Source: Desulfobulbaceae bacterium DB1 (lineage in GTDB: Bacteria > Desulfobacterota > Desulfobulbia > Desulfobulbales > SURF-16). From it: a stretch of 64,000 bases of DNA. The position numbers and the translations under genes are program-made. Location: the NCBI GenBank assembly GCA_001914235.1, contig MQUF01000003.1:448225-512224 (forward strand). Reading direction: 5' to 3'. This document shows positions 5,338 through 56,658 of this stretch, in pieces (the first letter of the stretch is position 1; every line of letters begins with the position of its first letter). Under the pieces are notes generated by a model. It did no database searches. It was not told the DNA's origin and saw nothing but the letters and a program-made list of their open reading frames with translations.

Positions 5338-6183
5338 GTAACTCCTTTGGGTTAAAAAATGATGCGCCGGGATTGTTCCCGAAAAGGTGCACCTTGTCAC
5401 GCGGCAGTCTCTGCCGCGTTAATCTGTTTATTATTTATTTAATCAGGATTTTCAGTCGGTTGTGGGAAAAAGATGAAAAGTGCCAGACAACTTCAGGGAG
5501 GATTTCAATATCCTCGGTGAGGAATGCTTCGGACTTCTCCGTGAATGTTTTTTAGCCTGACGCTCATTTTTCAACCCGGTCCGGGTCGTTTGCCCCGGAT
5601 ACAGGGTGCTTGTTGCCATGAGCCGCCTGTCGCGAATCCCGTCATTCAGTGTTGCACCGGCGTTGTGGCCAACGGTACGTTTTACCATTCCTGCAAAACC
5701 AAAACATTTTGACTGCTTGGCAAAATAATCGATGTATTTCGGCGATTTATCAACACGCGACAAGGGATGCGAAGAATGATTCCAGCTGGGGTCTCGATCA
5801 TATAGTGAACCTGGTTCGGGCATACAGCCGCAATATGCTCTCCTTTGTAAGTGGTCGGCAGACGACTTTAACGATAGCAAACCAGGCAAATGCAACAACG
5901 TGGCGGGAATATAACGTGAAAGGAATATGCTTTTACTCCAAATATTATTTCCAGCATTTATAACTCGATAATTTCATAATGGCAACAGAATAATTTTACA
6001 TAATAATTTCACGAACACGTTTCCCGCCCTCAAAAGGCTCGCCTTGCCGGCTCATGAAATATATCTGGCTTTTTCCTGGATTTCATATTAAATAAAGAGG
6101 TTCGTCTTTATGGGAGTGGTTTCCAGAATGCCGCCCAGGCGGAGACTATTATTTAACGTACTCACTGAAAGGAGAATCTCCCT

Positions 6184-6639
6184 GTGACAACCAGCAATGA
6201 AACTTCAGCCGGCGACGATATTGATTCCCGTTGCTTGAAATGCAAGGCCGTCACCAATCATACCATCATCGCCATGATCGCCGGGCAGGTTGCAAAGGTG
6301 CAATGCAACACCTGCGGCAGTCGCCACAACTACCGTCCACCCATTGTCGAAAAGGCCACGACCCTGCGCCGCTCCGCGGGGAAAATCGTTGCCGGCGGTC
6401 GAATCGCCAAGCCCCGCATGACCAAAGGAATGACGGCTGCGGCCCTGTTTGATGAAATTCTGGCCGGCCAAGACATCGCCACGGCCAAACCCTACAGCAT
6501 GAGTGGCGATTTCAACTCCAACGACCTGCTCAATCATCCCACCTTCGGATTCGGGGTGGTGACCAAAAAAATAAATTCCACCAGAATAGAAGTCACCTTT
6601 AAAGAGGGAAGCAAGATTCTGGTCTGCAGCACAAGTTAG
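6184..6639 (+). CDS. Hypothetical Zn-ribbon protein
   Basis: GTG start preceded by AAGGAGA. A CxxC..CxxC pair is present (CLKCKAVTNH..CNTCGSRHNY). No family recognised. Confidence 0.55.
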   Translation: MTTSNETSAGDDIDSRCLKCKAVTNHTIIAMIAGQVAKVQCNTCGSRHNYRPPIVEKATTLRRSAGKIVAGGRIAKPRMTKGMTAAALFDEILAGQDIATAKPYSMSGDFNSNDLLNHPTFGFGVVTKKINSTRIEVTFKEGSKILVCSTS

Positions 6640-6894
6640 CTCCATGGCCCCTGCCCCTGTGACGCCGGGAGGGCATCTCTGTTTTCTTTGCAAAAAAGCG
6701 TCCTTTTTTTTTCCACCTGTGTTATCGTAAAATTTTTATTGAATTTTCCCTCTTGTCCTCCCTGACATGGGGCGAGTTCTTTTTACATATTTCATATTGA
6801 AGAGTCCCTGTACTCTGTGCCGCTGTCGATCATTTTTGTGCGTTTGGGGGGATGGCGTTAGTGCAATGAACGTACCTTACCGAGGAAAAAACAA

Positions 6895-7170
6895 ATGAAT
6901 ATTTATGTCAGCAACCTGCCCGTTTCAGTGAATGAAGATGAGCTGAAGGTAATGTTTTCACAATACGGCGAGGTTGCAAGTATCAACCTTATCAAGGACA
7001 GATTCTCCGGTCAGTCAAAGGGGTTCGGTTTCATCGACATGCCGAACAATTCAGAGGCTGACGTGGTTATCAAGTCCCTGAACAAAAGCACCCTTCACGG
7101 CCGTGTCATCAAAGTCATCCAGGCCGAACCGCAACGCAAGAAACCTACCCGACGGGGCCGCCGATTCTAG
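6895..7170 (+). CDS. RRM-type RNA-binding protein
   Basis: RNP2 NIYVSNL and RNP1 KGFGFIDM, with a basic tail (RKKPTRRGRRF). Length is 91 aa. Confidence 0.9.
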   Translation: MNIYVSNLPVSVNEDELKVMFSQYGEVASINLIKDRFSGQSKGFGFIDMPNNSEADVVIKSLNKSTLHGRVIKVIQAEPQRKKPTRRGRRF

Positions 7171-7246
7171 CGGGAAAGCATCCCCGGAAATTCCGGCAGA
7201 TTTTTTCCAAAATTCGACATGACGTGGCGCGACCGCAGGTTCGCGC

Positions 7247-7903
7247 CTACTCACCGTAATAAGCCGCAGCCAGATCCCGTCCGAGCTTCCTGAGAGCCGC
7301 CACGGTTTCCGGATTTTGCTCCAGGGTGTTTATGCCCACGTTCTCCGCCGCGGCATCCGGGCCGTGAATCATCTTGACGCCTGAAACCCGGCATTGGCTG
7401 CCGCTTTTGCATTTAACGCAGGGCACATTCCCAAGCACGGAAACTCCCCCCACGTAACGCATCCCCTCCTCCATCATACAAAACCGAATGGCCTGAAGGC
7501 CGTTTTCACCGGCGGGCGGCATGCCTTCCCTGCCCGGCGGAACAGCGCAGGTGACAACCGCGGCTCCCGGCTTGCCGGCCATCAACCCATGGCGATGCCG
7601 CAGGGCATAAAGCCGCTCCATGAAGGCCTTGGTGCGACTGTCCAGCGAGGAATACGGCGTATAGCCGCCGACAATGACAATATCCGCCTTGAATGCCTTT
7701 TCCGCCAGCATGACACCATCATCAGCAATGATGCAACGATTGGTTTTTACACAGCCCAGGCAGGCATTGCAGGGACTTATCGTATAATCGCTCAGCTTAT
7801 AAAACCACTGTTTGCCGGCCATGGTTGCCTCCATGACCATCCTGACCGCGCGATCCGTGTTACTGTTTTTGACGGGTGATCCTGATATTCCGAGCACTAT
7901 CAT
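7247..7903 (-). CDS. Iron-sulfur flavoprotein / NADPH-dependent FMN reductase family
   Basis: MIVLGISGSPVKNSNT flavodoxin-like N-terminus and a compact CNACLGCVKTNRC (CxxCxxCx5C) cluster motif. The start is trimmed to ATG 7903. Confidence 0.8.
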   Translation of the reverse strand: MIVLGISGSPVKNSNTDRAVRMVMEATMAGKQWFYKLSDYTISPCNACLGCVKTNRCIIADDGVMLAEKAFKADIVIVGGYTPYSSLDSRTKAFMERLYALRHRHGLMAGKPGAAVVTCAVPPGREGMPPAGENGLQAIRFCMMEEGMRYVGGVSVLGNVPCVKCKSGSQCRVSGVKMIHGPDAAAENVGINTLEQNPETVAALRKLGRDLAAAYYGE

Positions 7904-7971: not shown

Positions 7972-8187
7972 TGTCCAATCCGCAGCGCAACACCTTTAAA
8001 TTAATGCATTTTTATGTTTTGTTTAAAATTTCTACCCGTTATCCTACCCGTTTGTGTCGCCGGTGAATGGGTTGACCTTATTCGCTCTTTCCATACCAAC
8101 GGTTATTTTTTCACGCAAGAACTTTATCCAAAGATGCGGGAAGCAGAAAGGGTCTGCACTGAATGCAGGCCCTTTTGAGTAGTAAAA

Positions 8188-9183: not shown

Positions 9184-9273
9184 TGGCGGAGAGGGTGGGA
9201 TTTGAACCCACGGTACCCTCACGGGTACACCGGATTTCGAATCCGGCTCATTCGGCCGCTCTGACACCTCTCC
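9184..9273 (-). tRNA. tRNA-Ser (anticodon CGA), class II with long variable arm, CCA encoded
   Basis: Reverse complement is GGAGAGGTGTCAGAGCGGCCGAATGAGCCGGATTCGAAATCCGGTGTACCCGTGAGGGTACCGTGGGTTCAAATCCCACCCTCTCCGCCA. It has a 7-bp acceptor stem, anticodon stem CCGGA/TCCGG with loop TTCGAAA, and T-arm GTGGG-TTCAAAT-CCCAC. Confidence 0.92.
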
Positions 9274-46326: not shown

Positions 46327-46394
46327 TCGGCCCAGGCCGGCAAAACCCAACCCTTTTCGTGACGCCAGTGCACTCAGAAACAGACGCAAATCAC

Positions 46395-47501
46395 ATGAAT
46401 GGGCGCAGACGCGCCTGGCTGCTGCAACTTTACCGGGAACACCGGCAGATCAGCCTGCTGCACCGGCTGCATCTTTCGACGCCGATCATTGAAATCAGCG
46501 CGGCCTCGACATACTGGGGAAGCTGGCAGTCGGCGGGCGGCGCCATCCGGATCTCTTCCCGGCTCATCGAACTCCACACCTGGGACGTGGTGATCAATGT
46601 CCTCAAACACGAGATGGCCCATCAGGCGGTAAGCGAGCTTTTCCACAGCCGGGAAGGCCACGGCGACCTTTTTGCCAGGGCCTGCGACATGCTGGGAGTC
46701 CCGGACGGTTTCAGGGAAGCCGGCGGCGATCTGCCCCGTTCCCTGCCGACCATCCACGAAAAAGCACAAAAGAGTCCGCAACACGCCCTGCTGCTGAAAA
46801 TAGAAAAAATCCTGGCCCTGGCCCGCTCAAGCAATGAACATGAAGCGCAGCTCGCCATGGAAAAGGCCAACCAGCTCATCACCCGCTACAACCTTGCCCG
46901 GGTCACCACGGAAAATGACACCGGTTACGACTGCATCATCATCAATCACAAGAAGAAACGGATCGAAAATTACCAGCGGAGAATCTGCGCCGTCTTGAGC
47001 CGCCATTTCTTTGTCCGTATCGTGCTGGCCGATCTTTATGATCCGGATCTCTGCTGCAGCCACAAAACCATCGAAATCCTGGGCGCCCGGGAAAACGTGC
47101 TGACCGCCGAATACGTCTATCATTTTCTTCTTTCCCGCATGGAGTCCTTCTGGGAAGAGTTCCGGCGCCGCAACCAAACCGGCGGCAACAGGAAACGATC
47201 CTACTGCCTGGGACTGCTGGATGGATTTGACGCGAAACTTACGGCCGGGGAGCAGGAAAACGCCGTTACTCCAAAGGCAGCCGCCGGTCAAAACATTTCC
47301 GCCCTGGTCTGCGAAGCCGACAGAGGGCTGAGCCTTTTCATCCGCAGGCGCCATCCCCGCCTGGCGCGCAGGAGCCATGCCGGGGCCGGCGTTTCCCGCC
47401 GGGAGTATGAAGCCGGCAGGCAGGACGGTGACAAACTGGTGCTGCACAAGGTGATGGAAAACCATGACGGCAACCGGGGCAAAATGCTGCCTTGTCGGTA
47501 A
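46395..47501 (+). CDS. SprT-like Zn-metalloprotease domain fused to a DUF2786-like domain
   Basis: Contains HEMAH. The later segment LLLKIEKILALARSSNEHEAQLAMEKANQLITRYNL is typical of DUF2786. Confidence 0.7.
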   Translation: MNGRRRAWLLQLYREHRQISLLHRLHLSTPIIEISAASTYWGSWQSAGGAIRISSRLIELHTWDVVINVLKHEMAHQAVSELFHSREGHGDLFARACDMLGVPDGFREAGGDLPRSLPTIHEKAQKSPQHALLLKIEKILALARSSNEHEAQLAMEKANQLITRYNLARVTTENDTGYDCIIINHKKKRIENYQRRICAVLSRHFFVRIVLADLYDPDLCCSHKTIEILGARENVLTAEYVYHFLLSRMESFWEEFRRRNQTGGNRKRSYCLGLLDGFDAKLTAGEQENAVTPKAAAGQNISALVCEADRGLSLFIRRRHPRLARRSHAGAGVSRREYEAGRQDGDKLVLHKVMENHDGNRGKMLPCR

Positions 47502-48756: not shown

Positions 48757-49227
48757 CTATTTCCCTTCCTGCTCCTGGAGAAGATCCCCCAGGTATTGGG
48801 CGGACTCGCCCACCAGTTCAACGCAGATCCGGCGGCGGCCCTCGGGGTCGGCATAGTATTTTTTGACCTCTTCCCTGTTTCTCCAGTCCACCCGGGCAAT
48901 ATCGCAGCAATTGACGCTGCCGTGGTCTCTTGTCAATTCATCGAATTTTTTCATAAACTTATGACTGAGGAGCCACATGCGGGGATCTTCCTTTTCCTCC
49001 AGACTGCTCCTGCTGTAAAGCGAAGAGATCATCGCCACGGCGCCGAGCAAAATACCGCAGGCACCGCCCGAACCGGCGATGCCGCCGCCGAAAGCGCCCA
49101 CCGCCTTGACGGACTGTTCGTCCACTCGCCCTGCTTTTTCCTGGCCCACGGCAAGGATCGCCTGGCTTCAATGAAACCGTTTTGTAAAAAGTTCCACGGC
49201 CTTCAGCCGCATCTCTTCCGAATTCAT
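48757..49227 (-). CDS. C_GCAxxG_C_C family redox protein, candidate selenoprotein (in-frame TGA 49168-49170 at the first conserved Cys position)
   Basis: The track ORF (48757-49149) lacks the family N-terminus. Extending the same frame upstream gives ATG 49227, preceded by GAGGTG. The extension reads MNSEEMRLKAVELFTKRFH-TGA-SQAILAVGQEKAG... The family pattern here is F..G..C(S/A)(Q/E)(A/S)(I/V)L. GGACGILLGA and the later Cys residues follow. Sec decoding is independently evident in this window (fdhA). Confidence 0.6.
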
Positions 49228-49311
49228 ACTTCGCACCTCGGATATGTGTTGACGGGAGATTGGTTCATTGCAAACCGGCCAATGTACCGCATTCCCATCA
49301 TTCTGCCCAGC

Positions 49312-49827
49312 TTAAAAATCATCTCCGGGCGGGCCGTTTTTTTCCGGATCAGCAAATCTTCCATCCGACTTGTGCCGCCTCACGGCTTGCACCGCTTCTT
49401 CAAGCCATCCGGTACGGATGTCCGCCTGCCCGTCAAATTCCGGCACATGGGGTTTGATATCGAGCAGCGGCGTGCCGTCAAGAATATCAACATTCTCTAT
49501 TTCAAGCACACATCCCGCAACCCGGAGAAGCTTGACCACGGACATGCCGATGGGGTTGGGACGACGTGGGGCGCGGGTGGCAAAGACCCCGCGCGGCACG
49601 GTATCGAGAAAGGGAACAACCGTCAGCTGGAAACCCGAACTCCGGTGAAAATGGTAAAGGAGGACAATATGGGAAAAGCCCTCAAGGTCCTGCAACCCTG
49701 CCGCGTACTCAGGAAACACCACCACCCGGCCCTTGATGCCGGATGCACCGGCGGGTTGAATGGGCATGTCCTGCCGCGATGCGTGGGGGGAATGGATAAT
49801 TCCTATCGGCACATATTCGATTTTCAT
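49312..49827 (-). CDS. trmO: tRNA (N6-threonylcarbamoyladenosine(37)-N6)-methyltransferase TrmO (YaeB/TsaA family)
   Basis: PIGIIHSP..FSHIVLLYHFH..RAPRRPNPIGMSVVKLL..LDGTPLLDIKP. Confidence 0.85.
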   Translation of the reverse strand: MKIEYVPIGIIHSPHASRQDMPIQPAGASGIKGRVVVFPEYAAGLQDLEGFSHIVLLYHFHRSSGFQLTVVPFLDTVPRGVFATRAPRRPNPIGMSVVKLLRVAGCVLEIENVDILDGTPLLDIKPHVPEFDGQADIRTGWLEEAVQAVRRHKSDGRFADPEKNGPPGDDF

Positions 49828-50051
49828 AATGGCTCAAACCTCCCTGAGATTACATGCATGGGAAACACAAAAAACAACGAAGTGAAGCAGCAATCCGTCC
49901 ATTCCTTCTTCCCTGTTAAAAGGCTGCATTGTCCAAGGATTGTCAAGTTTTTTCCCCCAGACAAGGGGTATGTCCTCTTTCCACCGGGCTGTTGCCTTGC
50001 ATTTTCACAAACCTGATTTTTATCATTTGACCTCTGCAACCTGCCGGGCTT

Positions 50052-50852
50052 ATGATCAAAGAAACAGCGCGCAGCAAACGCAAAAGGATCAAGCCAACCA
50101 CGCGAGAAATTCATTTGATATTATTACATATTTTTTCAATTATCCTGTTATCGTCCTTTGTGCCCGCCCCACTGGCCGCAGGCGGCATGGAAACCATGGA
50201 TGCCGGCAAATTCTCCGGTGCAACAGCCGACGAGCAGCTGCCCGCGGGATGGGAGCCCCTCCATTTCAAGGACATCCCCAGCCATACCGAATACAGCCTG
50301 ATCCAGGACAACGGCACCACCGTGGTTCAGGCCGTAAGCCGGGCATCCTCATCCGGGTTGACCCGTAAAATCAACATCGATCCACAAGAATATCCAACCC
50401 TTTCCTGGAGCTGGAAGGTGTCGAACATCTATGATAAAGGAGATGTCACCCGCAAGGACGGCGACGATTACCCGGCCAGAATCTATATCACCTTTGCCTA
50501 TGATGCCGATAAGGTCGGGTTCTGGGAGCGGGTGAAATTCAACACGGTCAAATTCATCTACGGAGAATATCCGCCCATCAATGCCATCAATTATATCTGG
50601 GCGAGCAAGGCGCCGCAGGAGCTGATCACCCCCAACCCCTTTACCGACCGGGTCAAGATGATCGTCATTGAAAGCGGCGCGGGAAAAATCAATCAGTGGA
50701 TCCATGAAAAACGCGATATTGTCAGCGATTATCGGCAGGCATTCGGCGAAGAGCCGCCGCTTATTTCCGGCATCGCCATCATGACCGACTCCGACAACAC
50801 CAGGGAAAGCGCCACCGCCTGGTACGGCGACATCGCCTTCTCCCGAAAGTAA
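50052..50852 (+). CDS. DUF3047 domain protein (secreted)
   Basis: Hydrophobic N-terminus. ..PAGWEPLHFKDIPSHTEYSL..PTLSWSWKVSN..GDDYPARIYITF matches the DUF3047 pattern. Confidence 0.7.
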   Translation: MIKETARSKRKRIKPTTREIHLILLHIFSIILLSSFVPAPLAAGGMETMDAGKFSGATADEQLPAGWEPLHFKDIPSHTEYSLIQDNGTTVVQAVSRASSSGLTRKINIDPQEYPTLSWSWKVSNIYDKGDVTRKDGDDYPARIYITFAYDADKVGFWERVKFNTVKFIYGEYPPINAINYIWASKAPQELITPNPFTDRVKMIVIESGAGKINQWIHEKRDIVSDYRQAFGEEPPLISGIAIMTDSDNTRESATAWYGDIAFSRK

Positions 50853-50872: not shown

Positions 50873-51595
50873 ATGGGACACAAATCCCGTCATCATCATG
50901 AAAAACATGCCGAACTTCCCCGCCGAGCCGAGCGGCTGGAGGAAAAACCATTGACTCTTGCCCTGGTGGTCAAGGGTGATACCGACGGCTGCGAAGAAGC
51001 GGTTTGCAGCACCCTGTCGGCAAACCTCGTGCCGGGGGTTGACATGGAAATTCTGCACAAAGGCGTGGGCGACATCTGCAAAAACGATGTCCTGACCGCG
51101 GCAAGCGGCAGCCGCCTGGTGGTGGGTTTCAATGTGGGCGTTCATCCCAGAATAGACGAACTCTGCCGGGAGCTTGATGTCGAAATCCGCCTTTACTCGG
51201 TCATCTATCAACTGCAGAAGGATATTACCGAGATTGCCGAAAGCCTCCTTCCCCGCGAAGAAGAGGAAAAAATCCTCGGCAGCGCCAGGGTCATCGCCCT
51301 GTTCAAAAGCAGCCGTAAAGGCATCATTCTCGGCTGCCAGGTACAGCAGGGACGTCTGCAAACCGGCGACCGTTTCCGGATCATCGCCGCCATGGGGCCC
51401 ATCTACTCCGGGGTCATCGAGTCACTGCATATTGAACAAAATGTGGTCACCAGGGCGACACCCGGTCAGCAGGTGGGTCTGAAAATAAGGGATTTCAAGG
51501 CGGCCAAACTGGATGACTATGTTGAATGTTATCAACCCATTCGCCCTTCGACAAAGGCCAGGTGGCAACCCAGTGGAAAAATTCTTTATCTGTAA
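50873..51595 (+). CDS. Stand-alone paralogue of the IF2 C-terminal domains (C1/C2), no GTPase domain
   Basis: LALVVKGDTDGCEEAV..ILHKGVGDICKNDVLTAASGSRLVVGFNV..VEIRLYSVIYQLQKDI..LGSARVIALFKSSRKGIILGCQV..G is collinear with the E. coli IF2 segment [58 protein letters not shown].. Confidence 0.7.
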   Translation: MGHKSRHHHEKHAELPRRAERLEEKPLTLALVVKGDTDGCEEAVCSTLSANLVPGVDMEILHKGVGDICKNDVLTAASGSRLVVGFNVGVHPRIDELCRELDVEIRLYSVIYQLQKDITEIAESLLPREEEEKILGSARVIALFKSSRKGIILGCQVQQGRLQTGDRFRIIAAMGPIYSGVIESLHIEQNVVTRATPGQQVGLKIRDFKAAKLDDYVECYQPIRPSTKARWQPSGKILYL

Positions 51596-51854
51596 CGCCA
51601 TTTTTCTCGCCCGCCGCAAAAAAAATGAAACCTTTTCCCTTCTCCGTTGTCTCATGAATTTCAAATACCGGACACGCATTTTTTTCGCGTCAACCTTGAT
51701 GGATTCGTAAAAAGTCTTTTTTTCAGCACTGAGGGCGCAGACGACACAGAGAAAATATCTTGAATTACAGTCAGTTATCTCCGTGCACTCCGTGGTCTCC
51801 GTGGTTGTTTTTTTAGTTTTTACGAGACCATCAACCTTTTCAATTTCTTTCGCC

Positions 51855-52784
51855 ATGATTGAAGTAAACAATTTAAGCAAAAATTACGATGAGGTCGCCG
51901 CCCTGTCCGACGTGACGTTTTCCGTGCGGGACGGCGAGGTGATCGGCCTGCTCGGGCCTAACGGCGCCGGGAAAACCACCCTGATGAAAATTCTCACCGG
52001 CTATCTTCAGCCCGATGCCGGATCTGCCAGGATCGGCGGCCATGATGTGCTGGAAGAAAGCGGCGCCGTCCAGCAAATGATCGGTTATCTGCCGGAAAAT
52101 GCGCCGCTTTATCCGGAATTGACCGTGCAGTCATACCTCAGGATGATGGCCGACCTGCGCCGGATTCCCGAACAGGACCAGCCGGCGCGACTCTCCGAGG
52201 CCATTCGCGGCGTCGGCCTTGAAGAACGGCTTACCCTGCCCATCGGCACCCTGAGCAAAGGATACCGGCAGCGGGTGGGACTGGCCCAGGCCATGCTCCA
52301 TCATCCCCGCCTGCTCATTCTCGATGAACCGACCAACGGACTTGACCCGACCCAGATCGCCCTGGTGCGCAACCTGATTAAAAAACTGGCCCGCACCAGC
52401 ACGGTGATGATTTCCACCCACATTCTCTCCGAAGTGGAAGCCACCTGCGACAGGGCGATTATCATCATCAAGGGCGAAGTCAAGGCCGATGCCCGACTCT
52501 CCGACCTTGCGGCAACGAGCAGCGCCCGTTTGATTCTGGCGACTGCTGACTCGCAAGGCCCCCTGAAGGAACTCGGCCGCCTGGAGCAGGTGCGGGAAGT
52601 GAGCTGCACCAGCCTGCCGAACGGCCGCAGCTCCTATCTCATCAAGACGGTGGGCGACACGGATATTTGTCCCGATCTGTACCGGCTTGCCCGGGAAAAG
52701 GATTGGCCCCTTTGCGAACTGCACCGGCAGACCCGCACCCTGGAGTCGGTTTTTAACGAGCTTGCCGCCGGAGGTGTCCAATGA
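51855..52784 (+). CDS. ABC transporter ATP-binding protein (GldA-like)
   Basis: Walker A GPNGAGKTT, signature LSKGYRQR and Walker B LLILDEPTNGLD. The start is trimmed to ATG 51855. Confidence 0.9.
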   Translation: MIEVNNLSKNYDEVAALSDVTFSVRDGEVIGLLGPNGAGKTTLMKILTGYLQPDAGSARIGGHDVLEESGAVQQMIGYLPENAPLYPELTVQSYLRMMADLRRIPEQDQPARLSEAIRGVGLEERLTLPIGTLSKGYRQRVGLAQAMLHHPRLLILDEPTNGLDPTQIALVRNLIKKLARTSTVMISTHILSEVEATCDRAIIIIKGEVKADARLSDLAATSSARLILATADSQGPLKELGRLEQVREVSCTSLPNGRSSYLIKTVGDTDICPDLYRLAREKDWPLCELHRQTRTLESVFNELAAGGVQ

Positions 52785-55702
52785 AGCAGATTCTCGCCAT
52801 CACCGGAAAGGAGCTGCAGACCTCTTTCGGCACGCCGATGGCCTCCATCTTCATCGGCTTTTTCCTCCTCTGCTCTCTTTTTTCCTTTTTTTGGCTGGAA
52901 ACATTTTTTGCCAGAAATATTGCCGACATACGGCCGCTGTTTTCCTGGATGCCGTTGCTCATGATCTTTCTTGCCGCCGCGCTCACCATGCGCCAGTGGA
53001 GCGAAGAGCAGAAAATGGGCACCCTGGAGGTGCTGTTGACCCTGCCGGTGCGCATCCATCAGCTTGTCATCGGCAAATTTCTTGCCGTGCTGCTGCTCAC
53101 CGCCTGCGCCCTGTTTCTCACCGTCGGCCTGCCAATCACGGTATCAATGATGGGCAATCTTGACTGGGGCCCTGTGATCGGCGGTTACCTCGGCGCCCTG
53201 CTCATGGCGGCTGCCTACATCAGCATCGGTCTTTTCGTCTCCTCCCGCACGGACAGCCAGATCATCTCCCTCATGCTCACCGTGCTGCTGGCCGGTTTTT
53301 TCTATCTGATCGGTTCAACCGGCATTACCGATTTTTTCGGCAACCGCGCCTCGGATTTCCTGCGCGCACTCGGAACCGGCAGCCGTTTCACCAGCATCGA
53401 ACGGGGAATCATCGATCTGCGCGACATCGTCTATTACCTGAGCATCGCCCTTTTCTTTCTCTGCCTGAATATCTTCTTTCTTGACCGAACCAGATGGAGC
53501 TTCGGCGCCACCACCGCCGCCTACCGCAAAAAGGCGCTTGCCGCCGTTCTGCTGATCAGCGCAAACCTTCTGGCCGCCAACATCTGGCTGGCCCAGGTCA
53601 ACACGATCCGGGTCGACCTGACCGGCCAGAAGATATACTCCCTGTCGCCGGCTACCCGGGATATTATCGCCAATCTGCCGGAACCGCTTGTGCTGCGCGG
53701 CTACTTCAGCGCCAAGACCCACCCCCTGCTTTCCCCTCTGGTTCCCCGCATCAAGGATCTGATGAGCGAATACCAGCACGCTTCCAAGGGCACGGTGCAG
53801 GTCTCTTTTGCGGACCCGAAATTTGACGAGGAACTTGAAAGCGAAGCAAACCAGCTCTACGGCATCAAACCTGTTCCCTTTCAGGTTGCCGGACGCTATG
53901 AGGCATCGGTGGTCAATTCCTATTTCCACATCCTGATCAAATACGGCGACCAGCATGCGGTGCTGGGTTTTAATGACCTGATCGAAGTCAAACCCCAGGC
54001 CGACGGCACCCTCGATGTCGCTTTGCGCAATCTGGAATACGACCTGACGAAATCCATCAAGAAAGTAGTCTACGGTTTTCAGTCCCTGGCCTCGGTTCTC
54101 GCTGAAAACCCGGACAAATTCAACCTTGTTTCCATTGTTACCCCGGATTCCCTGCCCGAACCTTTCCGGCAACTGCCGGCCACAATCAGCACCGTGCTGG
54201 AAAAACTGGAAAAAGAGTCCGGCACCCGACTTCACGTCGAGGAAATCAACCTGGACGGCCAGACCGAGGAAGCCCGGGCCGCTGTTGCCGGCAAATACGG
54301 AATCGAGCCGATCACGGTATCTTTCTTCTCGGATGATACATTTTTTCTTCACCTGATGCTGACAACGGCTGACACCATGGAACGCATCTATCTCACTCCG
54401 GATATGGGCGAGGCAGAGGTGCGCCGGGAAATCGAAGGGGCAATCAAACGAAACGGCACCGGTTTCACCAAAACCGTGGGTGTCTGGACCCCGGCGAATG
54501 CGGAAAATCAGCCCATGCTGCAGCACGGCCCCGAGGACAGTTACCAGATCCTTCAGCAGCTGCTGAAGGAAAATTACAACCTGAAAAAAGTGGAGCTCGC
54601 CGCTGGACGGGTGCCGGGGGACATCGACGTTCTGCTCCTGGCCGCGCCCCGGGAAATGAAGGCAATCGACCTGCTGGCCGTTGACCAGTTCATGATGCAG
54701 GGTGGCGCGGTGGTGGCCCTGGCCGGGAATTACCTGCTTGACCTGTCTCCTTCCGCCCAGACCCTGCAAGTCAAAAAGGTCAAGGACGGCCTGACGGAAC
54801 TGCTCGCATTTCACGGCATTACGGTGGATGAAACGCTGGTCATGGACAAGCAGAACGAGCCGTTCCCCATTCCGGTCACCCGCGATCTCGGCGGGCTGGT
54901 CATCCAGGAAATCCAGCGCCTCGACTACCCTTTTTTCGTCGATGTCCGGCCGGAAAACATGGCGCAGACCAACCCGATAACCGCAAGTCTTCCCGCGGTC
55001 ACCATGAACTGGGCTTCCCCCGTGCTGATCGACGACACGAAGCTTGCGGGCAGGCAGGTCGCCGTGCTGCTCAAGTCAAGCCCGGAATCCTGGCTTCATG
55101 AAGGAACGTCCATCGAGCCTGATTTCAATCGTTATCCGAACAGCGGCTTTGCTCCGGGCGCTGATTTTACGCAGCAGAATCTCGCGGTGGCGGTCAGTGG
55201 AGCCTTCACCAGCTTCTTTGCCGATCGTCCCGACCCCAGACTGGAAAAGCCGGCGGAGAAGATGGAAGAGGATGAGTCCGAAGCAATCAAAGAATCGCCG
55301 CTGACACTTGAAGGCGAGGAGGATCAGGAGATCAAAGCGGCGCCCATCCCCCTGCTCCGCAAATCACCCGGGACCGCCCGGCTGGTGGTGGTCGGTTCAT
55401 CCGAATTCGTCAACGACACGGTGCTCAGCATGTCCCAGGGTATGGGAATGGACCGCTTTCTCAACAGTCTTGAGTTCGTCCAGAACATCATCGACTGGTC
55501 GGTGGCGGATGAGGATCTCTTGACCATCCGCTCCCGCGGCTCCCACGCCAGGCTGCTGAAACCCATGAGCCGGCAGGAACAGACCTTCTGGGAGTGGCTG
55601 AACTACGGCCTCGCCATGGCAGCCCTTGTCGGACTTGGCATGTACGGCGCCGGGAGACGAAGAAAGGAACAACCCATGCGGCTGGTGGGGGAAAAATCAT
55701 GA
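52781..55702 (+). CDS. Fusion of an ABC-2 permease (GldF-like) with a GldG-like large extracytoplasmic domain
   Basis: ATGA overlap with the ATPase gene. The first ~250 aa form a polytopic permease. A ~700-aa soluble region follows, ending in a terminal TM (FWEWLNYGLAMAALVGLGMYG). Confidence 0.8.
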   Translation: MKQILAITGKELQTSFGTPMASIFIGFFLLCSLFSFFWLETFFARNIADIRPLFSWMPLLMIFLAAALTMRQWSEEQKMGTLEVLLTLPVRIHQLVIGKFLAVLLLTACALFLTVGLPITVSMMGNLDWGPVIGGYLGALLMAAAYISIGLFVSSRTDSQIISLMLTVLLAGFFYLIGSTGITDFFGNRASDFLRALGTGSRFTSIERGIIDLRDIVYYLSIALFFLCLNIFFLDRTRWSFGATTAAYRKKALAAVLLISANLLAANIWLAQVNTIRVDLTGQKIYSLSPATRDIIANLPEPLVLRGYFSAKTHPLLSPLVPRIKDLMSEYQHASKGTVQVSFADPKFDEELESEANQLYGIKPVPFQVAGRYEASVVNSYFHILIKYGDQHAVLGFNDLIEVKPQADGTLDVALRNLEYDLTKSIKKVVYGFQSLASVLAENPDKFNLVSIVTPDSLPEPFRQLPATISTVLEKLEKESGTRLHVEEINLDGQTEEARAAVAGKYGIEPITVSFFSDDTFFLHLMLTTADTMERIYLTPDMGEAEVRREIEGAIKRNGTGFTKTVGVWTPANAENQPMLQHGPEDSYQILQQLLKENYNLKKVELAAGRVPGDIDVLLLAAPREMKAIDLLAVDQFMMQGGAVVALAGNYLLDLSPSAQTLQVKKVKDGLTELLAFHGITVDETLVMDKQNEPFPIPVTRDLGGLVIQEIQRLDYPFFVDVRPENMAQTNPITASLPAVTMNWASPVLIDDTKLAGRQVAVLLKSSPESWLHEGTSIEPDFNRYPNSGFAPGADFTQQNLAVAVSGAFTSFFADRPDPRLEKPAEKMEEDESEAIKESPLTLEGEEDQEIKAAPIPLLRKSPGTARLVVVGSSEFVNDTVLSMSQGMGMDRFLNSLEFVQNIIDWSVADEDLLTIRSRGSHARLLKPMSRQEQTFWEWLNYGLAMAALVGLGMYGAGRRRKEQPMRLVGEKS

Positions 55703-56658
55703 AAAAGAACATAAATCGCATCCTTTCCATCCTGCTGATCGGCCAGCTGGCGCTGATCGCCATTTTCTACTGGCCCGGCAAGGAAAAGAAAACGGCGCCA
55801 ACCGAACTTGTCACGGGCCTCAACGCCGAATCGGTGCGGGAACTGACCATTACCGACGACGAGGGGAAAACCCTTGCATTGGCAAAGGATAATGCCGGAC
55901 AATGGCAGGTGACCAGCGCGACGCCTTTGCCGCTGCCCGCCGACGGGAAACAGATGGAACGCACCATCGCCTCGCTCACCTCCCTTCAGTCGCAGCGGCT
56001 GGTGACCCGCACCAGGGCAAGCCATGTCCGTCTGCAGGTGGATGACCGCGTTTTCTCCCGCAAGATCACCCTGCGCGGCGAAAAGGATAAAAGCAGCACC
56101 CTCTTTCTCGGCACCACCCCCGGCCAGCAGACGACCCATGTTCGGGCGCAAGGTTCCGATGATGTGTATCTGGCCAGGGGAATTTCCGCCTGGGAGCTGA
56201 TTACCGAGCAGGATTCCTGGATCGCCAAGGAATATGTGGCGATTGACCGGGAAAAATTACAGGAAGTACGGCTGACAAACGGACATGGCTCCTTGACCCT
56301 GATACGGGAGCAAGGCAACTGGAGGCTGGCCGGTGCCGACGAAGCGAGCTCCGCCGTTGCTGAGGATGCGGTTGACGCCCTGCTGCAAAGGGCGACTCGC
56401 CTTACCCTGCATGAATACCTGGGCAAGGACAAACCAACGGACGCCCTTGACGCGGCCACCCTGACCCTGGTCGCGGAAGGCCAAACCGTCACCGTTGATA
56501 TCGGCAGCGGCCGGAAGGATTACGACAATTTTCATGTCATCAAGTCGTCGGCCTCGCCTTTTTATGTCACGGTCAGCGACTACCAGATCAAACCGCTCCT
56601 TGACATGACCAAGGAAGGTCTGGCCGCTCCGAAGAAGCCTGAGCCGGAACAGAAATAA
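55699..56658 (+). CDS. DUF4340 domain protein (GldG-system accessory)
   Basis: ATGA overlap with the upstream gene. An N-terminal anchor MKKNINRILSILLIGQLALIAIFYW is followed by repeated beta-rich modules. Confidence 0.7.
   Translation: MKKNINRILSILLIGQLALIAIFYWPGKEKKTAPTELVTGLNAESVRELTITDDEGKTLALAKDNAGQWQVTSATPLPLPADGKQMERTIASLTSLQSQRLVTRTRASHVRLQVDDRVFSRKITLRGEKDKSSTLFLGTTPGQQTTHVRAQGSDDVYLARGISAWELITEQDSWIAKEYVAIDREKLQEVRLTNGHGSLTLIREQGNWRLAGADEASSAVAEDAVDALLQRATRLTLHEYLGKDKPTDALDAATLTLVAEGQTVTVDIGSGRKDYDNFHVIKSSASPFYVTVSDYQIKPLLDMTKEGLAAPKKPEPEQK

What the first reader, a model, noticed from the sequence alone, without database searches (positions are those of the whole stretch)
50873..51595. 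Orphan IF2 C-terminal (C1/C2, fMet-tRNA-binding) protein without a GTPase
The 240-aa ORF is collinear with the last ~210 residues of bacterial IF2 but is considerably diverged (KGDTDGCEEAV versus [11 protein letters not shown]). It has a unique His/Arg-rich 35-aa N-terminus. It is uninterrupted and starts 20 nt after the DUF3047 gene. This looks like an old, maintained paralogue rather than a fresh fragment. A free C2-type domain could bind initiator tRNA or compete with IF2.
Basis: partly seen in the sequence, partly recalled or inferred. Interest (0 to 1): 0.55.

Follow-up and report, generated by a model that had tools for sequence, protein, structure and literature searches.

The report
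Stand-alone IF2 tail protein, no GTPase
This is a real, conserved gene for a small protein made only of the last two domains of bacterial initiation factor IF2, kept under selection in about 74 uncultured sulfur-cycling bacterial species, with IF2's formyl-methionine pocket rebuilt, so it probably binds RNA at the ribosome without GTP and does something other than IF2's normal job.

Summary
Window 50873..51595 (+) encodes a 240-aa protein that matches only IF2 domains C1 and C2 (Pfam IF-2 E=4e-23; TIGR00487 profile 368-579/587; E. coli IF2 688-883). It has no G domain and starts 20 nt after a DUF3047 gene.

It is not a fragment. More than 120 clusters of ~240-250-aa homologues exist. About 74 species-level genomes carry it, all MAGs or SAGs of Thermodesulfobacteriota and Nitrospirota. 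The family is monophyletic on a long stem against 91 full-length IF2s. dN/dS is 0.10-0.26, most loci have a Shine-Dalgarno-like motif, and no locus has G-domain remnants upstream.

The fold is IF2 C1 + C2 (AlphaFold pLDDT 85; Foldseek TM 0.6-0.7). The residues that cradle fMet in IF2 are replaced by other, family-invariant residues: Arg-Phe to Ile-Glu, Arg-Gln to Ile-Ala, Glu-Cys to Gln-Val. The scaffold of the pocket and the Tyr near the sarcin-ricin loop are kept. C2 is more basic, and the protein has basic tails.

My best reading, which is inferred, is a GTP-independent tRNA-3'-end and ribosome binder with changed ligand specificity. I found no published description. I could not show directly that a full-length infB sits in the same genome.

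The parts
50873..51595 (+). Complete gene for the 240-aa stand-alone IF2 C1-C2 paralogue (stop codon included)
   Evidence: ORF. IF-2 domain and IF2 C-terminal matches. Family of ~240-250-aa homologues. Identical product found in independent assemblies.
50873..50950 (+). N-terminal basic His/Lys/Arg-rich tail (residues 1-26), predicted disordered
   Evidence: pLDDT is below 50 for residues 1-23. Across the family the tail has a median length of 31 aa, 36% K/R/H and a median of 5 His; its sequence varies but its start M-(G/S)-H-K is conserved.
50951..51244 (+). IF2 C1 (domain III) alpha/beta domain, residues 27-124, including helix 12 (residues 111-124) with the conserved Tyr112
   Evidence: Pfam PF11987 E=4e-23. 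The AlphaFold model shows four strands flanked by helices, as described for IF2-C1. Y112 aligns with E. coli Tyr772, the residue near the sarcin-ricin loop. The IF2-invariant Glu (E. coli E730) is Lys70 here.
51263..51541 (+). IF2 C2 (domain IV) beta-barrel, residues 131-223
   Evidence: Aligns to G. stearothermophilus IF2-C2 (1d1n), E=1.3e-11, without gaps. The AlphaFold model is all-beta with pLDDT above 90. Foldseek top hits are IF2 and mitochondrial IF2. Median net charge is +4, against -1 in canonical IF2 C2.
51293..51304 (+). Pocket strand beta1: I141-A142-L143-F144, in place of IF2 R654-Q655-T656-F657 (G. stearothermophilus numbering)
   Evidence: Alignment. fMet pocket residues from the review. 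Near-invariance within the family.
51428..51439 (+). Beta4-beta5 loop: H186-I187-E188-Q189, in place of IF2 R846-R847-F848-K849 (E. coli numbering), the loop that cradles fMet
   Evidence: Alignment. Pocket definition. H186, I187 and E188 are at least 90% conserved in the family.
51467..51478 (+). Beta5: Q199-Q200-V201-G202, in place of IF2 (Y/M)-E860-C861-G862
51542..51592 (+). C-terminal tail (residues 224-240) carrying the family-specific W231-x-P233-x-G235 motif
   Evidence: W231 is invariant; P233 and G235 are at least 90% conserved. The motif is absent from all 91 full-length bacterial IF2 representatives. pLDDT is 93 for residues 231-240, with a short strand at 237-239.
50052..50852 (+). 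Upstream co-oriented DUF3047 gene, 20 nt from the paralogue's ATG. It is probably co-transcribed here, but it is a neighbour only in the window's subclade
   Evidence: Pfam DUF3047 E=9e-82. It is the immediate upstream neighbour in the window, L005, L008-L010, L020 and L085-L087 only.

Best explanation
SHOWN. The ORF is a genuine, independently translated gene. Its product consists only of IF2's two C-terminal domains: the C1 alpha/beta domain, the helix-12 linker and the C2 beta-barrel. These are flanked by a disordered basic His/Lys/Arg tail of about 26 aa and by a short conserved W-x-P-x-G tail. The protein belongs to a discrete, monophyletic family under purifying selection. So far the family is found only in uncultured Thermodesulfobacteriota (Desulfobulbia, Syntrophobacteraceae, Desulfobacterales, Desulfosoma) and Nitrospirota (Thermodesulfovibrionales, Sulfobium and relatives).

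INFERRED MECHANISM. The protein acts without GTP as an RNA-binding module at the sites that the C-terminal half of IF2 uses.
- C2 keeps the hydrophobic scaffold of the acceptor-end pocket (F144, I152, C155, S184, G202). The surface loops that hold A76-fMet in IF2 are still the most conserved part of the protein.
- The chemistry of that pocket has been re-specified. The Arg-Phe/Tyr pair that cradles formyl-Met is Ile-Glu. Arg-Gln on strand beta1 is Ile-Ala, the type of residues that line the methionyl pocket of eIF5B. Glu-Cys on beta5 is Gln-Val.
- The ligand is therefore most likely a tRNA 3' end that is not formyl-methionylated, that is, an aminoacyl end with a free amino group or a bare CCA end.
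- The retained Tyr112 (equivalent to the Tyr near the sarcin-ricin loop), the more basic C2 and the basic tails would replace the missing G2/G3 anchor on rRNA.

Functionally I expect an accessory factor or modulator of initiation or tRNA handling at the IF2 site, not a second IF2.
For: - Domain content and fold.
- Family size, uniform length of ~240-250 aa and taxonomy.
- Monophyly and long stem. All 72 paralogues form one clade. Mean paralogue-to-IF2 distance is 1.52 substitutions per site, against 0.96 among 91 diverse IF2s.
- Purifying selection. NG86 dN/dS is 0.10-0.26 for pairs with dS of 0.1-0.5.
- Translation signals. An SD-like motif precedes the conserved ATG in 43 of 56 loci.
- Pocket mapping. 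The G. stearothermophilus pocket R654/Q655/F657/G667/E713 corresponds to I141/A142/F144/G154/Q200. The E. coli pocket S844, R846, R847, F848, K849, F804, F809, I812, C815, E860, C861, G862 corresponds to S184, H186, I187, E188, Q/K189, F144, K149, I152, C155, Q200, V201, G202. The replacing residues are invariant or at least 90% conserved in 121 family members.
- Paralogue-only conserved positions cluster on this face of C2: I141, A142, L143, R148, I151, F168, A173-P176, H186, Q199.
- The eIF5B methionyl pocket Val989/Ala990/Phe992 and its correspondences with EF-Tu.
- Tyr772 near the sarcin-ricin loop is conserved as Y112.
- Charge. C2 median net charge is +4, against -1 in IF2. The tails are basic and the median pI is 9.0.
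Against: - No binding or ribosome-association data exist, and all carriers are uncultured.
- The pocket-ligand inference rests on sequence correspondence and one AlphaFold model (pTM 0.57; the inter-domain orientation is uncertain). I had no coordinates to inspect.
- The eIF5B equivalence of I141/A142 is a positional inference, not a structural alignment.
- No translation-related gene is a family-wide neighbour. Neighbours are conserved only within subclades.
- Conservation of Y112 and of the K-x-D-x-x-G motif could be purely structural.
- The His-rich tail is short or absent in many Nitrospirota members, so it cannot be essential to the core function.
Confidence: 0.5

Rival explanations
1. 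IF2 mimic or antagonist. The protein binds the ribosome only, with C1 near the sarcin-ricin loop and uS12, and C2 on H89/H71/uL16. It blocks or tunes IF2 action or subunit joining, for example under starvation, without holding any tRNA end. On this view the conserved C2 face is an rRNA-contact or protein-contact surface.
For: - The C1-C2 architecture and the Tyr near the sarcin-ricin loop are retained.
- IF2 domain IV contacts uL16, H89 and H71.
- The protein carries extra positive charge.
- The fMet-cradling residues are lost.
Against: - The residues conserved only in the paralogue sit exactly on the beta1-beta2 and beta4-beta5 pocket that binds A76-aminoacyl in IF2, eIF5B and EF-Tu. That argues for a small ligand or 3' end rather than a flat rRNA contact.
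- There is no regulatory or stress context around the gene.
Confidence: 0.2
2. Off-ribosome adaptor. The C2 barrel presents an aminoacyl-tRNA end or a peptide/protein C-terminus to another enzyme. One candidate is the RimK-family ATP-grasp ligase encoded nearby in one large clade. C1 would then serve as a docking domain.
For: - A RimK-family ATP-grasp gene (Pfam RimK E=7e-18), or a very diverged homologue of it, lies within 0-4 kb of the paralogue in 16 loci. These belong to two sister clades, in different arrangements.
- RimK-type enzymes modify ribosomal protein bS6 (NCBIfam names).
Against: - The ATP-grasp gene is absent within +-8 kb in the window's clade and in the Nitrospirota clade, and absent from the whole 64-kb window.
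- The Syntrophobacteraceae version has lost recognisable ATP-grasp motifs.
- No other recurrent partner was found.
Confidence: 0.1
3. Split infB. In these lineages IF2 is encoded in two pieces, and this protein is the C-terminal half, working in trans with a truncated G-domain protein.
For: I could not retrieve the infB genes of the carrier genomes, so truncation of the canonical gene is not directly excluded.
Against: - A split IF2 would have to keep fMet recognition, yet the pocket residues that are near-universal in IF2 are replaced.
- The family sits on a long stem outside the diversity of 91 IF2s.
- The carriers are a patchy subset of two phyla.
- The family has its own N- and C-terminal tails.
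Confidence: 0.03
4. Recent infB fragment, pseudogene or assembly artefact.
For: None beyond the bare fact that the ORF covers only the IF2 C-terminus.
Against: - The same ~240-aa gene occurs in ~74 species and in more than 120 90%-identity clusters.
- dN/dS is 0.10-0.26.
- tblastn with five full-length IF2s finds no G-domain or G3 remnants upstream in any of 80+ loci or in the window.
- Three independent assemblies hold the identical gene and the same neighbours.
Confidence: 0.01

Closest known systems
Bacterial IF2, C-terminal half (domains C1/III and C2/IV; studied in isolation as IF2 C and IF2 C-2 of Geobacillus stearothermophilus)
   Same: - Same two domains in the same order, with the helix-12 linker.
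- 28-30% identity, with a gap-free alignment to E. coli IF2 688-883.
- Shared core motifs: K-x-D-x-x-G, GFNV, Y-x-V-I-Y, and F-K...G-x-x-x-G-C.
   Different: - No N, G1, G2 (GTPase) or G3 domains.
- The fMet-cradling residues are replaced: R846/R847/F848 to H/I/E, E860/C861 to Q/V, R654/Q655 to I/A.
- The IF2-invariant Glu in the 'ITESD' motif is Lys.
- C2 net charge is +4 rather than -1.
- It has its own basic N-tail and W-x-P-x-G C-tail.
- It is not in a nusA-infB-rbfA context.
Mammalian mitochondrial IF2 (e.g. PDB 6gaw, 6rw5, 9ojm)
   Same: - Best sequence match in the PDB (E=1.5e-27).
- The alignment runs through to a C-terminal extension in which W-D-P-G of mitochondrial IF2 aligns with W231-Q-P-S of the paralogue.
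- Foldseek TM-score about 0.67-0.71.
   Different: - Mitochondrial IF2 is a full GTPase.
- It keeps K-H-H-K-D-D and D-C-G in the pocket region.
- The tail resemblance may be coincidental and was not followed up structurally.
eIF5B/aIF5B domains III-IV
   Same: - Homologous two-domain module.
- The methionyl pocket of eIF5B is lined by Val989-Ala990-x-Phe992, and the paralogue has Ile141-Ala142-x-Phe144 at the positionally equivalent strand.
- An acidic residue (Asp1041 in eIF5B, Glu188 here) sits where IF2 has Phe/Tyr (positional inference).
   Different: - eIF5B/aIF5B are GTPases.
- They have two extra C-terminal helices that bind eIF1A/aIF1A.
- Sequence similarity to the paralogue is much weaker (E about 1e-6 or worse).
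EF-Tu domain II (acceptor-end binding beta-barrel)
   Same: - Same barrel fold and the same face used for A76-aminoacyl binding.
- The EF-Tu motif G-V-E-M-H-R aligns positionally with the paralogue's S-L-H-I-E-K.
   Different: In EF-Tu the barrel works together with the G domain and domain III. Here there is no G domain.
N-terminally shortened IF2 isoforms made from internal starts in infB (E. coli IF2-beta and IF2-gamma; own knowledge)
   Same: They are shorter IF2-derived proteins present beside full-length IF2.
   Different: Those isoforms come from the infB gene itself, keep the GTPase and G3 domains, and are identical in sequence to IF2. This protein is a separate, diverged gene that starts at C1.

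Membership tests
Translation initiation factor IF-2 (infB; NCBIfam TIGR00487 equivalog) | Whole-protein score above the curated cut-off | tested here: not met
   124.8 bits against a cut-off of 424.4; only profile positions 368-579 of 587 are matched.
Translation initiation factor IF-2 (infB; NCBIfam TIGR00487 equivalog) | GTPase (G2) domain with the G1 motif GHVDHGKT, plus the G3 beta-barrel | tested here: not met
   The protein starts at C1. There is no G1 motif anywhere in the window. tblastn with five full-length IF2s finds no G-domain or G3 remnants upstream in the window or in the paralogue loci.
Translation initiation factor IF-2 (infB; NCBIfam TIGR00487 equivalog) | C1 (Pfam PF11987) followed by the C2 beta-barrel | tested here: met
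   PF11987 E=4e-23. C2 aligns to 1d1n, E=1e-11. AlphaFold and Foldseek results.
Translation initiation factor IF-2 (infB; NCBIfam TIGR00487 equivalog) | Conserved fMet-A76 pocket residues (E. coli R846, R847, F848, K849, E860, C861; G. stearothermophilus R654, Q655, E713) | tested here: not met
   They are replaced by H186, I187, E188, Q/K189, Q200, V201, I141 and A142, all conserved within the family.
Translation initiation factor IF-2 (infB; NCBIfam TIGR00487 equivalog) | fMet-tRNA binding and GTP-dependent subunit joining | not testable with these tools
   This needs biochemistry. GTP dependence is impossible without a G domain.
Pfam PF11987 'IF-2' domain-containing proteins | Score above the Pfam gathering threshold | tested here: met
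   81.9 bits against 27. The same domain is precomputed for all 120 listed homologues.
eIF5B/aIF5B | G domain, plus domain IV with two C-terminal helices that bind (e/a)IF1A | tested here: not met
   No G domain. The region after the barrel is a short tail with a 3-residue strand, not helices. Only weak partial matches to the aIF-2 models.
Pseudogene or fragment of infB | Relaxed selection, disrupted upstream IF2 coding remnants, sporadic occurrence | tested here: not met
   dN/dS 0.10-0.26. No remnants upstream. About 74 species carry intact ORFs of uniform length.
Anti-phage defence or mobile-element cargo | Match to defence-system models, or location on phages or plasmids | tested here: not met
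   PADLOC gives 0 families. tblastn against plasmids and phages finds only canonical infB at 34% identity or less.

The most novel reading that the evidence does not exclude
A GTPase-free descendant of IF2 has evolved into a new translation or tRNA-handling factor. Its C2 pocket now recognises a tRNA 3' end that is not formylated, for example free-amino Met-tRNAi or another aminoacyl-tRNA. This would give some anaerobic sulfur-cycling bacteria either a formylation-independent, energy-free route to position or protect a tRNA on the ribosome, or a dedicated trans-acting brake on IF2.
Probability: 0.2. Interest if true: 0.75.

Novelty: new variant of a known kind. Interest (0 to 1): 0.5.

Why it matters
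IF2 is one of the two universally conserved initiation factors, and its C-terminal half is normally slaved to the GTPase. A separately encoded, selected C1-C2 module with a rebuilt aminoacyl pocket would be a natural experiment in what that half can do alone. It could bind ribosomes or tRNA ends without GTP. It might reveal an unrecognised accessory step in initiation, a regulator of IF2, or a tRNA-end chaperone.

The find also matters for annotation. Some pipelines call these 240-aa proteins 'translation initiation factor IF-2', which is misleading.

The limits are that the family is small, is confined to uncultured lineages, and has no functional data.

Tried and rejected
1. infB in the window. 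I searched all six frames for the IF2 G1 motif and found none.
2. G-domain remnants near the paralogue. A motif scan and tblastn with five full-length IF2s over 80+ loci found only selB in L029 and genuine infB in the actinobacterial loci L079-L084.
3. A family-wide operon partner. I clustered all ORFs within +-5 kb of the paralogue in about 75 loci. Only subclade-specific synteny emerged: DUF3047 and an ABC/GldG-like/DUF4340 set in the window's clade; Rho_N-like, TerB, PilZ and RimK-like genes in another; proC and an M16 peptidase in Syntrophobacteraceae.
4. Defence, plasmid or phage origin. All negative.
5. RNA elements around the gene. Rfam found nothing, and the promoter/terminator scans were not above the shuffled background.
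6. Literature precedent. I searched for truncated, paralogous or G-less IF2 and found only N-terminal truncations and isoforms, with no stand-alone C1-C2 protein.
7. The mitochondrial IF2 C-terminal W-D-P-G resemblance. The papers I could read did not describe its role, so I dropped it.
8. Direct proof of a full-length infB in a carrier genome. This was not achievable. The top full-length IF2 representatives carry no organism names. I had no lineage-specific IF2 query, so I ran no further search on a blind guess.
9. My first NJ-tree script timed out. I redid it with a faster distance calculation.
Full report
OBSERVATION

Window 50873..51595 (+) is an uninterrupted ATG-started ORF of 240 codons. 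The upstream gene at 50052..50852 is a DUF3047 protein (Pfam E=9e-82), and its stop lies 20 nt before the ATG.

The product matches IF2 in several ways:
- It matches Pfam PF11987 'IF-2' (the C1 domain) at E=4e-23 over residues 7-118. It also gives weak EF-Tu-domain-2-type barrel hits at residues 146-207.
- It matches NCBIfam's IF-2 equivalog at E=4e-36, but only across profile positions 368-579 of 587, at 124.8 bits against a cut-off of 424.4.
- Against PDB sequences it aligns without net gaps to E. coli IF2 residues 688-883 of 890. Its best hits are mammalian mitochondrial IF2 (E=1.5e-27).

So the described object is there, at those coordinates, and is far beyond chance. The 'unique' N-terminus is about 26 residues long rather than 35. 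Its last part still aligns with the basic linker that precedes C1 in mitochondrial IF2.

IS IT A FRAGMENT, AN ARTEFACT OR A GENE?

A search of 5.8 billion proteins returned 642 relatives. All of the best 120 are 205-308 aa long, mostly 240-250 aa, at 98% down to 48% identity. Their sources call them either 'hypothetical protein' or, misleadingly, 'translation initiation factor IF-2'.

A scan of one genome per GTDB species found the gene in about 74 species (L005-L078). After that, identity drops from at least 42% to 32-34%. Those weaker matches are ordinary 900-aa actinobacterial infB genes that carry the GHVDHGKT motif.

All carriers are MAGs or single-cell genomes. They belong to:
- Desulfobulbia/Desulfobulbaceae, Desulfurivibrio, Syntrophobacteraceae, Desulfobacterales and Desulfosoma, all in Thermodesulfobacteriota;
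- Thermodesulfovibrionales, Dissulfurispiraceae, Ca. Sulfobium and 'Nitrospiraceae', all in Nitrospirota.
Three records are closed MAG chromosomes.

Several lines of evidence show a real gene:
- In every locus the maximal ORF is only about 225-300 aa.
- tblastn with five full-length IF2s finds no G-domain or G3 remnant upstream of any paralogue or anywhere in the window. The only exception is an unrelated selB gene in L029.
- The window's exact 240-aa product, with the same TrmO-DUF3047-paralogue-ABC neighbours, occurs in three independent assemblies of different sequencing runs. This rules out misassembly.
- Pairwise Nei-Gojobori dN/dS is 0.10-0.26 for pairs with unsaturated dS of 0.1-0.5.
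- An SD-like motif precedes the conserved M-(G/S)-H-K start in 43 of 56 loci where the start could be placed. The window's own copy lacks one and may rely on coupling to DUF3047.
- An exhaustive profile search of 1.84 billion representatives shows about 20-25 paralogue clusters at 50% identity, scoring 336 down to about 190 bits. Full-length IF2s follow from 182 bits down.
- In a neighbour-joining tree of the C1-C2 region, all 72 complete paralogues form one clade. That clade is separated from 91 diverse full-length IF2s by the longest internal branch. Paralogue-to-IF2 distances (mean 1.52 substitutions per site) exceed those among the IF2s themselves (0.96).

'Recently disrupted infB' is refuted.

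ANATOMY

AlphaFold2 with the 121-sequence family alignment gives mean pLDDT 85. The model has these parts:
- residues 1-23: disordered;
- residues 27-124: a four-stranded alpha/beta domain, matching the published description of IF2-C1;
- residues 111-124: helix 12;
- residues 131-223: a beta-barrel;
- residues 237-239: a short strand in the confidently modelled C-terminal tail.

Foldseek against the PDB returns only IF2, mitochondrial IF2 and then a/eIF5B as top hits (TM 0.6-0.7 normalised to the query, 28-30% identity).

I compared 72 paralogues with 91 IF2s column by column.
- 26 positions are conserved and identical in both. These are the fold-defining motifs K-x-D-x-x-G, GFNV, Y-x-V-I-Y, F144, G150, G154-C155, G160, S184, G202 and D215/E218.
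- One position is conserved in both but differs: the IF2-invariant Glu of 'I-T-E-S/T-D' (E. coli E730) is Lys70.
- Eight positions are conserved only in IF2, including K, D and E of the 'S-L-K-R-F-K-D-D-V-x-E' loop.
- 27 positions are conserved only in the paralogue. They are concentrated in C2 (I141, A142, L143, R148, I151, F168, A173-M-G-P176, H186, Q199), plus W231, P233 and G235 in the tail.

None of the 91 bacterial IF2s has the W-x-P tail.

The N-terminal tail has a median length of 31 aa, 36% K/R/H and a median of five His. It is short in many Nitrospirota members. C2 carries a median net charge of +4, against -1 in IF2. The median whole-protein pI is 9.0.

THE fMet POCKET

A review of G. 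stearothermophilus IF2 places fMet in a pocket formed by R654, Q655, F657, G667 and E713. The 70S-IC cryo-EM study of E. coli IF2 defines the fMet-A76 pocket in three parts:
- S844, R846, R847, F848 and K849 on the beta4-beta5 loop;
- F804, F809, I812 and C815 on the beta1-beta2 loop;
- E860, C861 and G862 on beta5.
In that structure fMet is cradled by R847 and F848.

The gap-free alignments give these correspondences:
- Kept: F804=F144, I812=I152, C815=C155, S844=S184, G862=G202.
- Changed: F809 to K149, R846 to H186, R847 to I187, F848 to E188, K849 to Q189 (Lys in most members), E860 to Q200, C861 to V201.
- In G. stearothermophilus numbering, R654/Q655 become I141/A142.

The replacing residues are themselves invariant or at least 90% conserved in the family. 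The scaffold of the acceptor-end pocket is thus retained and still under the strongest constraint. Its polar and aromatic lining, which recognises formyl-Met, has been exchanged.

By positional correspondence with the eIF5B/EF-Tu comparison of Kuhle and Ficner:
- I141-A142-x-F144 resembles the Val989-Ala990-x-Phe992 lining of eIF5B's methionyl pocket;
- E188 sits where eIF5B has Asp1041 and EF-Tu has His273;
- I187 sits where EF-Tu has Met272 (EF-Tu motif from my own recollection).
All of those factors bind aminoacyl ends with a free amino group. This last step is my inference and was not checked by structural superposition.

Tyr772 of E. coli IF2 lies on helix 12 close to the sarcin-ricin loop. 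It is conserved as Y112.

CONTEXT

No gene is a family-wide neighbour. Synteny is clade-specific.
- The window's clade has DUF3047 upstream, and an ABC ATPase, a 970-aa GldG-like protein and a DUF4340 protein downstream.
- A Desulfobulbaceae-type clade has a Lys-rich Rho_N-like small protein upstream, and DUF1955-like, receiver, TerB and PilZ genes downstream.
- Syntrophobacteraceae have proC and an M16-type peptidase nearby.

The only association that crosses clades involves a RimK-family ATP-grasp ligase. It lies 1-2 kb upstream in eight loci. A strongly diverged homologue of it sits immediately divergent from the paralogue in eight Syntrophobacteraceae loci. It is absent around the window's copy and in Nitrospirota.

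The paralogue is not found on plasmids or phages and matches no defence-system model. Rfam and the promoter/terminator scans add nothing.

WHAT IT MOST LIKELY DOES

What is shown: a selected, independently translated, G-less C1-C2 protein with a conserved but chemically re-specified acceptor-end pocket, extra positive charge and family-specific tails.

What I infer: it binds RNA without GTP. Most likely it binds a tRNA 3' end that is not formyl-methionylated, on or near the ribosomal sites used by IF2's C-terminal half (sarcin-ricin loop/uS12 for C1; H89/H71/uL16 for C2). It would act as an accessory factor or modulator rather than a second IF2 (confidence about 0.5).

The rivals are:
- a pure ribosome-binding IF2 antagonist (0.2);
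- an off-ribosome adaptor, possibly linked to the RimK-like ligase (0.1);
- a split infB (0.03);
- a fragment or artefact (0.01 or less).

The split-gene idea is disfavoured because a trans-acting IF2 half should keep the fMet residues. It is not directly excluded, because I could not retrieve infB from a carrier genome.

COMPARISON WITH KNOWN SYSTEMS AND NOVELTY

The protein is homologous to IF2 but fails the defining features of IF2 membership: the curated score, the G and G3 domains, and the fMet pocket. It does meet the Pfam IF-2 (C1) domain definition.

The closest analogues are:
- the isolated IF2 C and C-2 fragments used in vitro;
- mitochondrial IF2, which is the best sequence match and has a similar W-x-P-G end;
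- eIF5B domains III-IV;
- EF-Tu domain II.
Natural short IF2 isoforms (own knowledge: E. coli IF2-beta and IF2-gamma) keep the GTPase and are products of infB itself.

Three full-text literature searches, plus a check of a 2026 comparative study of IF2 extensions, found no description of stand-alone C1-C2 proteins. I therefore rate it a new variant of a known kind.

It is moderately interesting (0.5). The family is clean, ancient-looking and mechanistically suggestive, but it is small, restricted to uncultured anaerobes, and so far has no functional handle.

Noticed in passing
L022:5625-6416 (+) and homologues in L024, L025, L030, L033, L037, L043, L074; diverged homologues at L049:906-1667 (-), L032, L038, L039, L040, L044, L046, L047: A RimK-family ATP-grasp ligase gene (Pfam RimK E=7e-18) lies 1-2 kb upstream of the IF2-C paralogue in one clade. 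A strongly diverged copy with no Pfam hit is the immediate divergent neighbour in the sister Syntrophobacteraceae clade. It is absent near the window's copy and from the whole window. RimK enzymes glutamylate ribosomal protein bS6, so a ribosome-related link is conceivable.
   Followed up: partly
L029: about 5930-7900 (+), just upstream of the paralogue at 8001: A selB-like gene (GHVDHGKTSLIRALTG... motif) ends about 100 nt before the paralogue in one Desulfobulbaceae MAG. This is a single case, so it is probably coincidental.
   Followed up: no
window 51563-51577 (W231-G235); PDB 9ojm/6rw5 alignment: The family-specific C-terminal W-x-P-x-G tail aligns with the extreme C-terminal S-W-D-P-G of mammalian mitochondrial IF2. 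None of 91 bacterial IF2 representatives has it. I do not know whether this is homology or coincidence, or what the tail does.
   Followed up: partly
L059 (CP070731.1, 1215066-1231686): The record is titled 'Flavobacteriaceae bacterium bin416 chromosome', yet its paralogue and neighbouring genes group with Desulfobulbaceae-type loci (L022 clade). The taxonomic label or the bin looks suspect.
   Followed up: no
L075:8049-8894 (+): In one Nitrospirota MAG the paralogue matches only residues 39-192 inside a 281-aa ORF. This may be a frameshifted or decaying copy, or a sequencing error.
   Followed up: no
window 46359-47501 (+): A 380-aa protein combines SprT-like/YgjP-like metallopeptidase, DUF2786 and DUF7168 matches, which is an unusual domain combination. 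It lies 3.4 kb upstream of the finding.
   Followed up: no
window 49312-49827 (-) and 48757-49149 (-): A TrmO-type tRNA methyltransferase N-terminal domain gene and a C_GCAxxG_C_C redox protein gene lie just upstream of DUF3047 on the opposite strand. TrmO is also present in the independent assembly L085. It is the only tRNA-related neighbour, and it is seen only in this subclade.
   Followed up: partly
window 48796-50016 (+): A 406-aa mechanical ORF runs antisense across the TrmO and C_GCAxxG genes. It is almost certainly not a gene, as are the other long antisense ORFs in this 54% G+C window.
   Followed up: no
window 51783-56658 (+): Downstream lies a cluster of an ABC ATPase, a 973-aa GldG-like ABC-associated protein and a DUF4340 protein. 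The cluster is conserved downstream of the paralogue in about 12 loci of the window's clade. There is a 187-nt gap after the paralogue's stop and no convincing terminator.
   Followed up: partly
window 9184-9273 (-): tRNA-Ser(CGA) is the only RNA gene detected in the 64-kb window.
   Followed up: no
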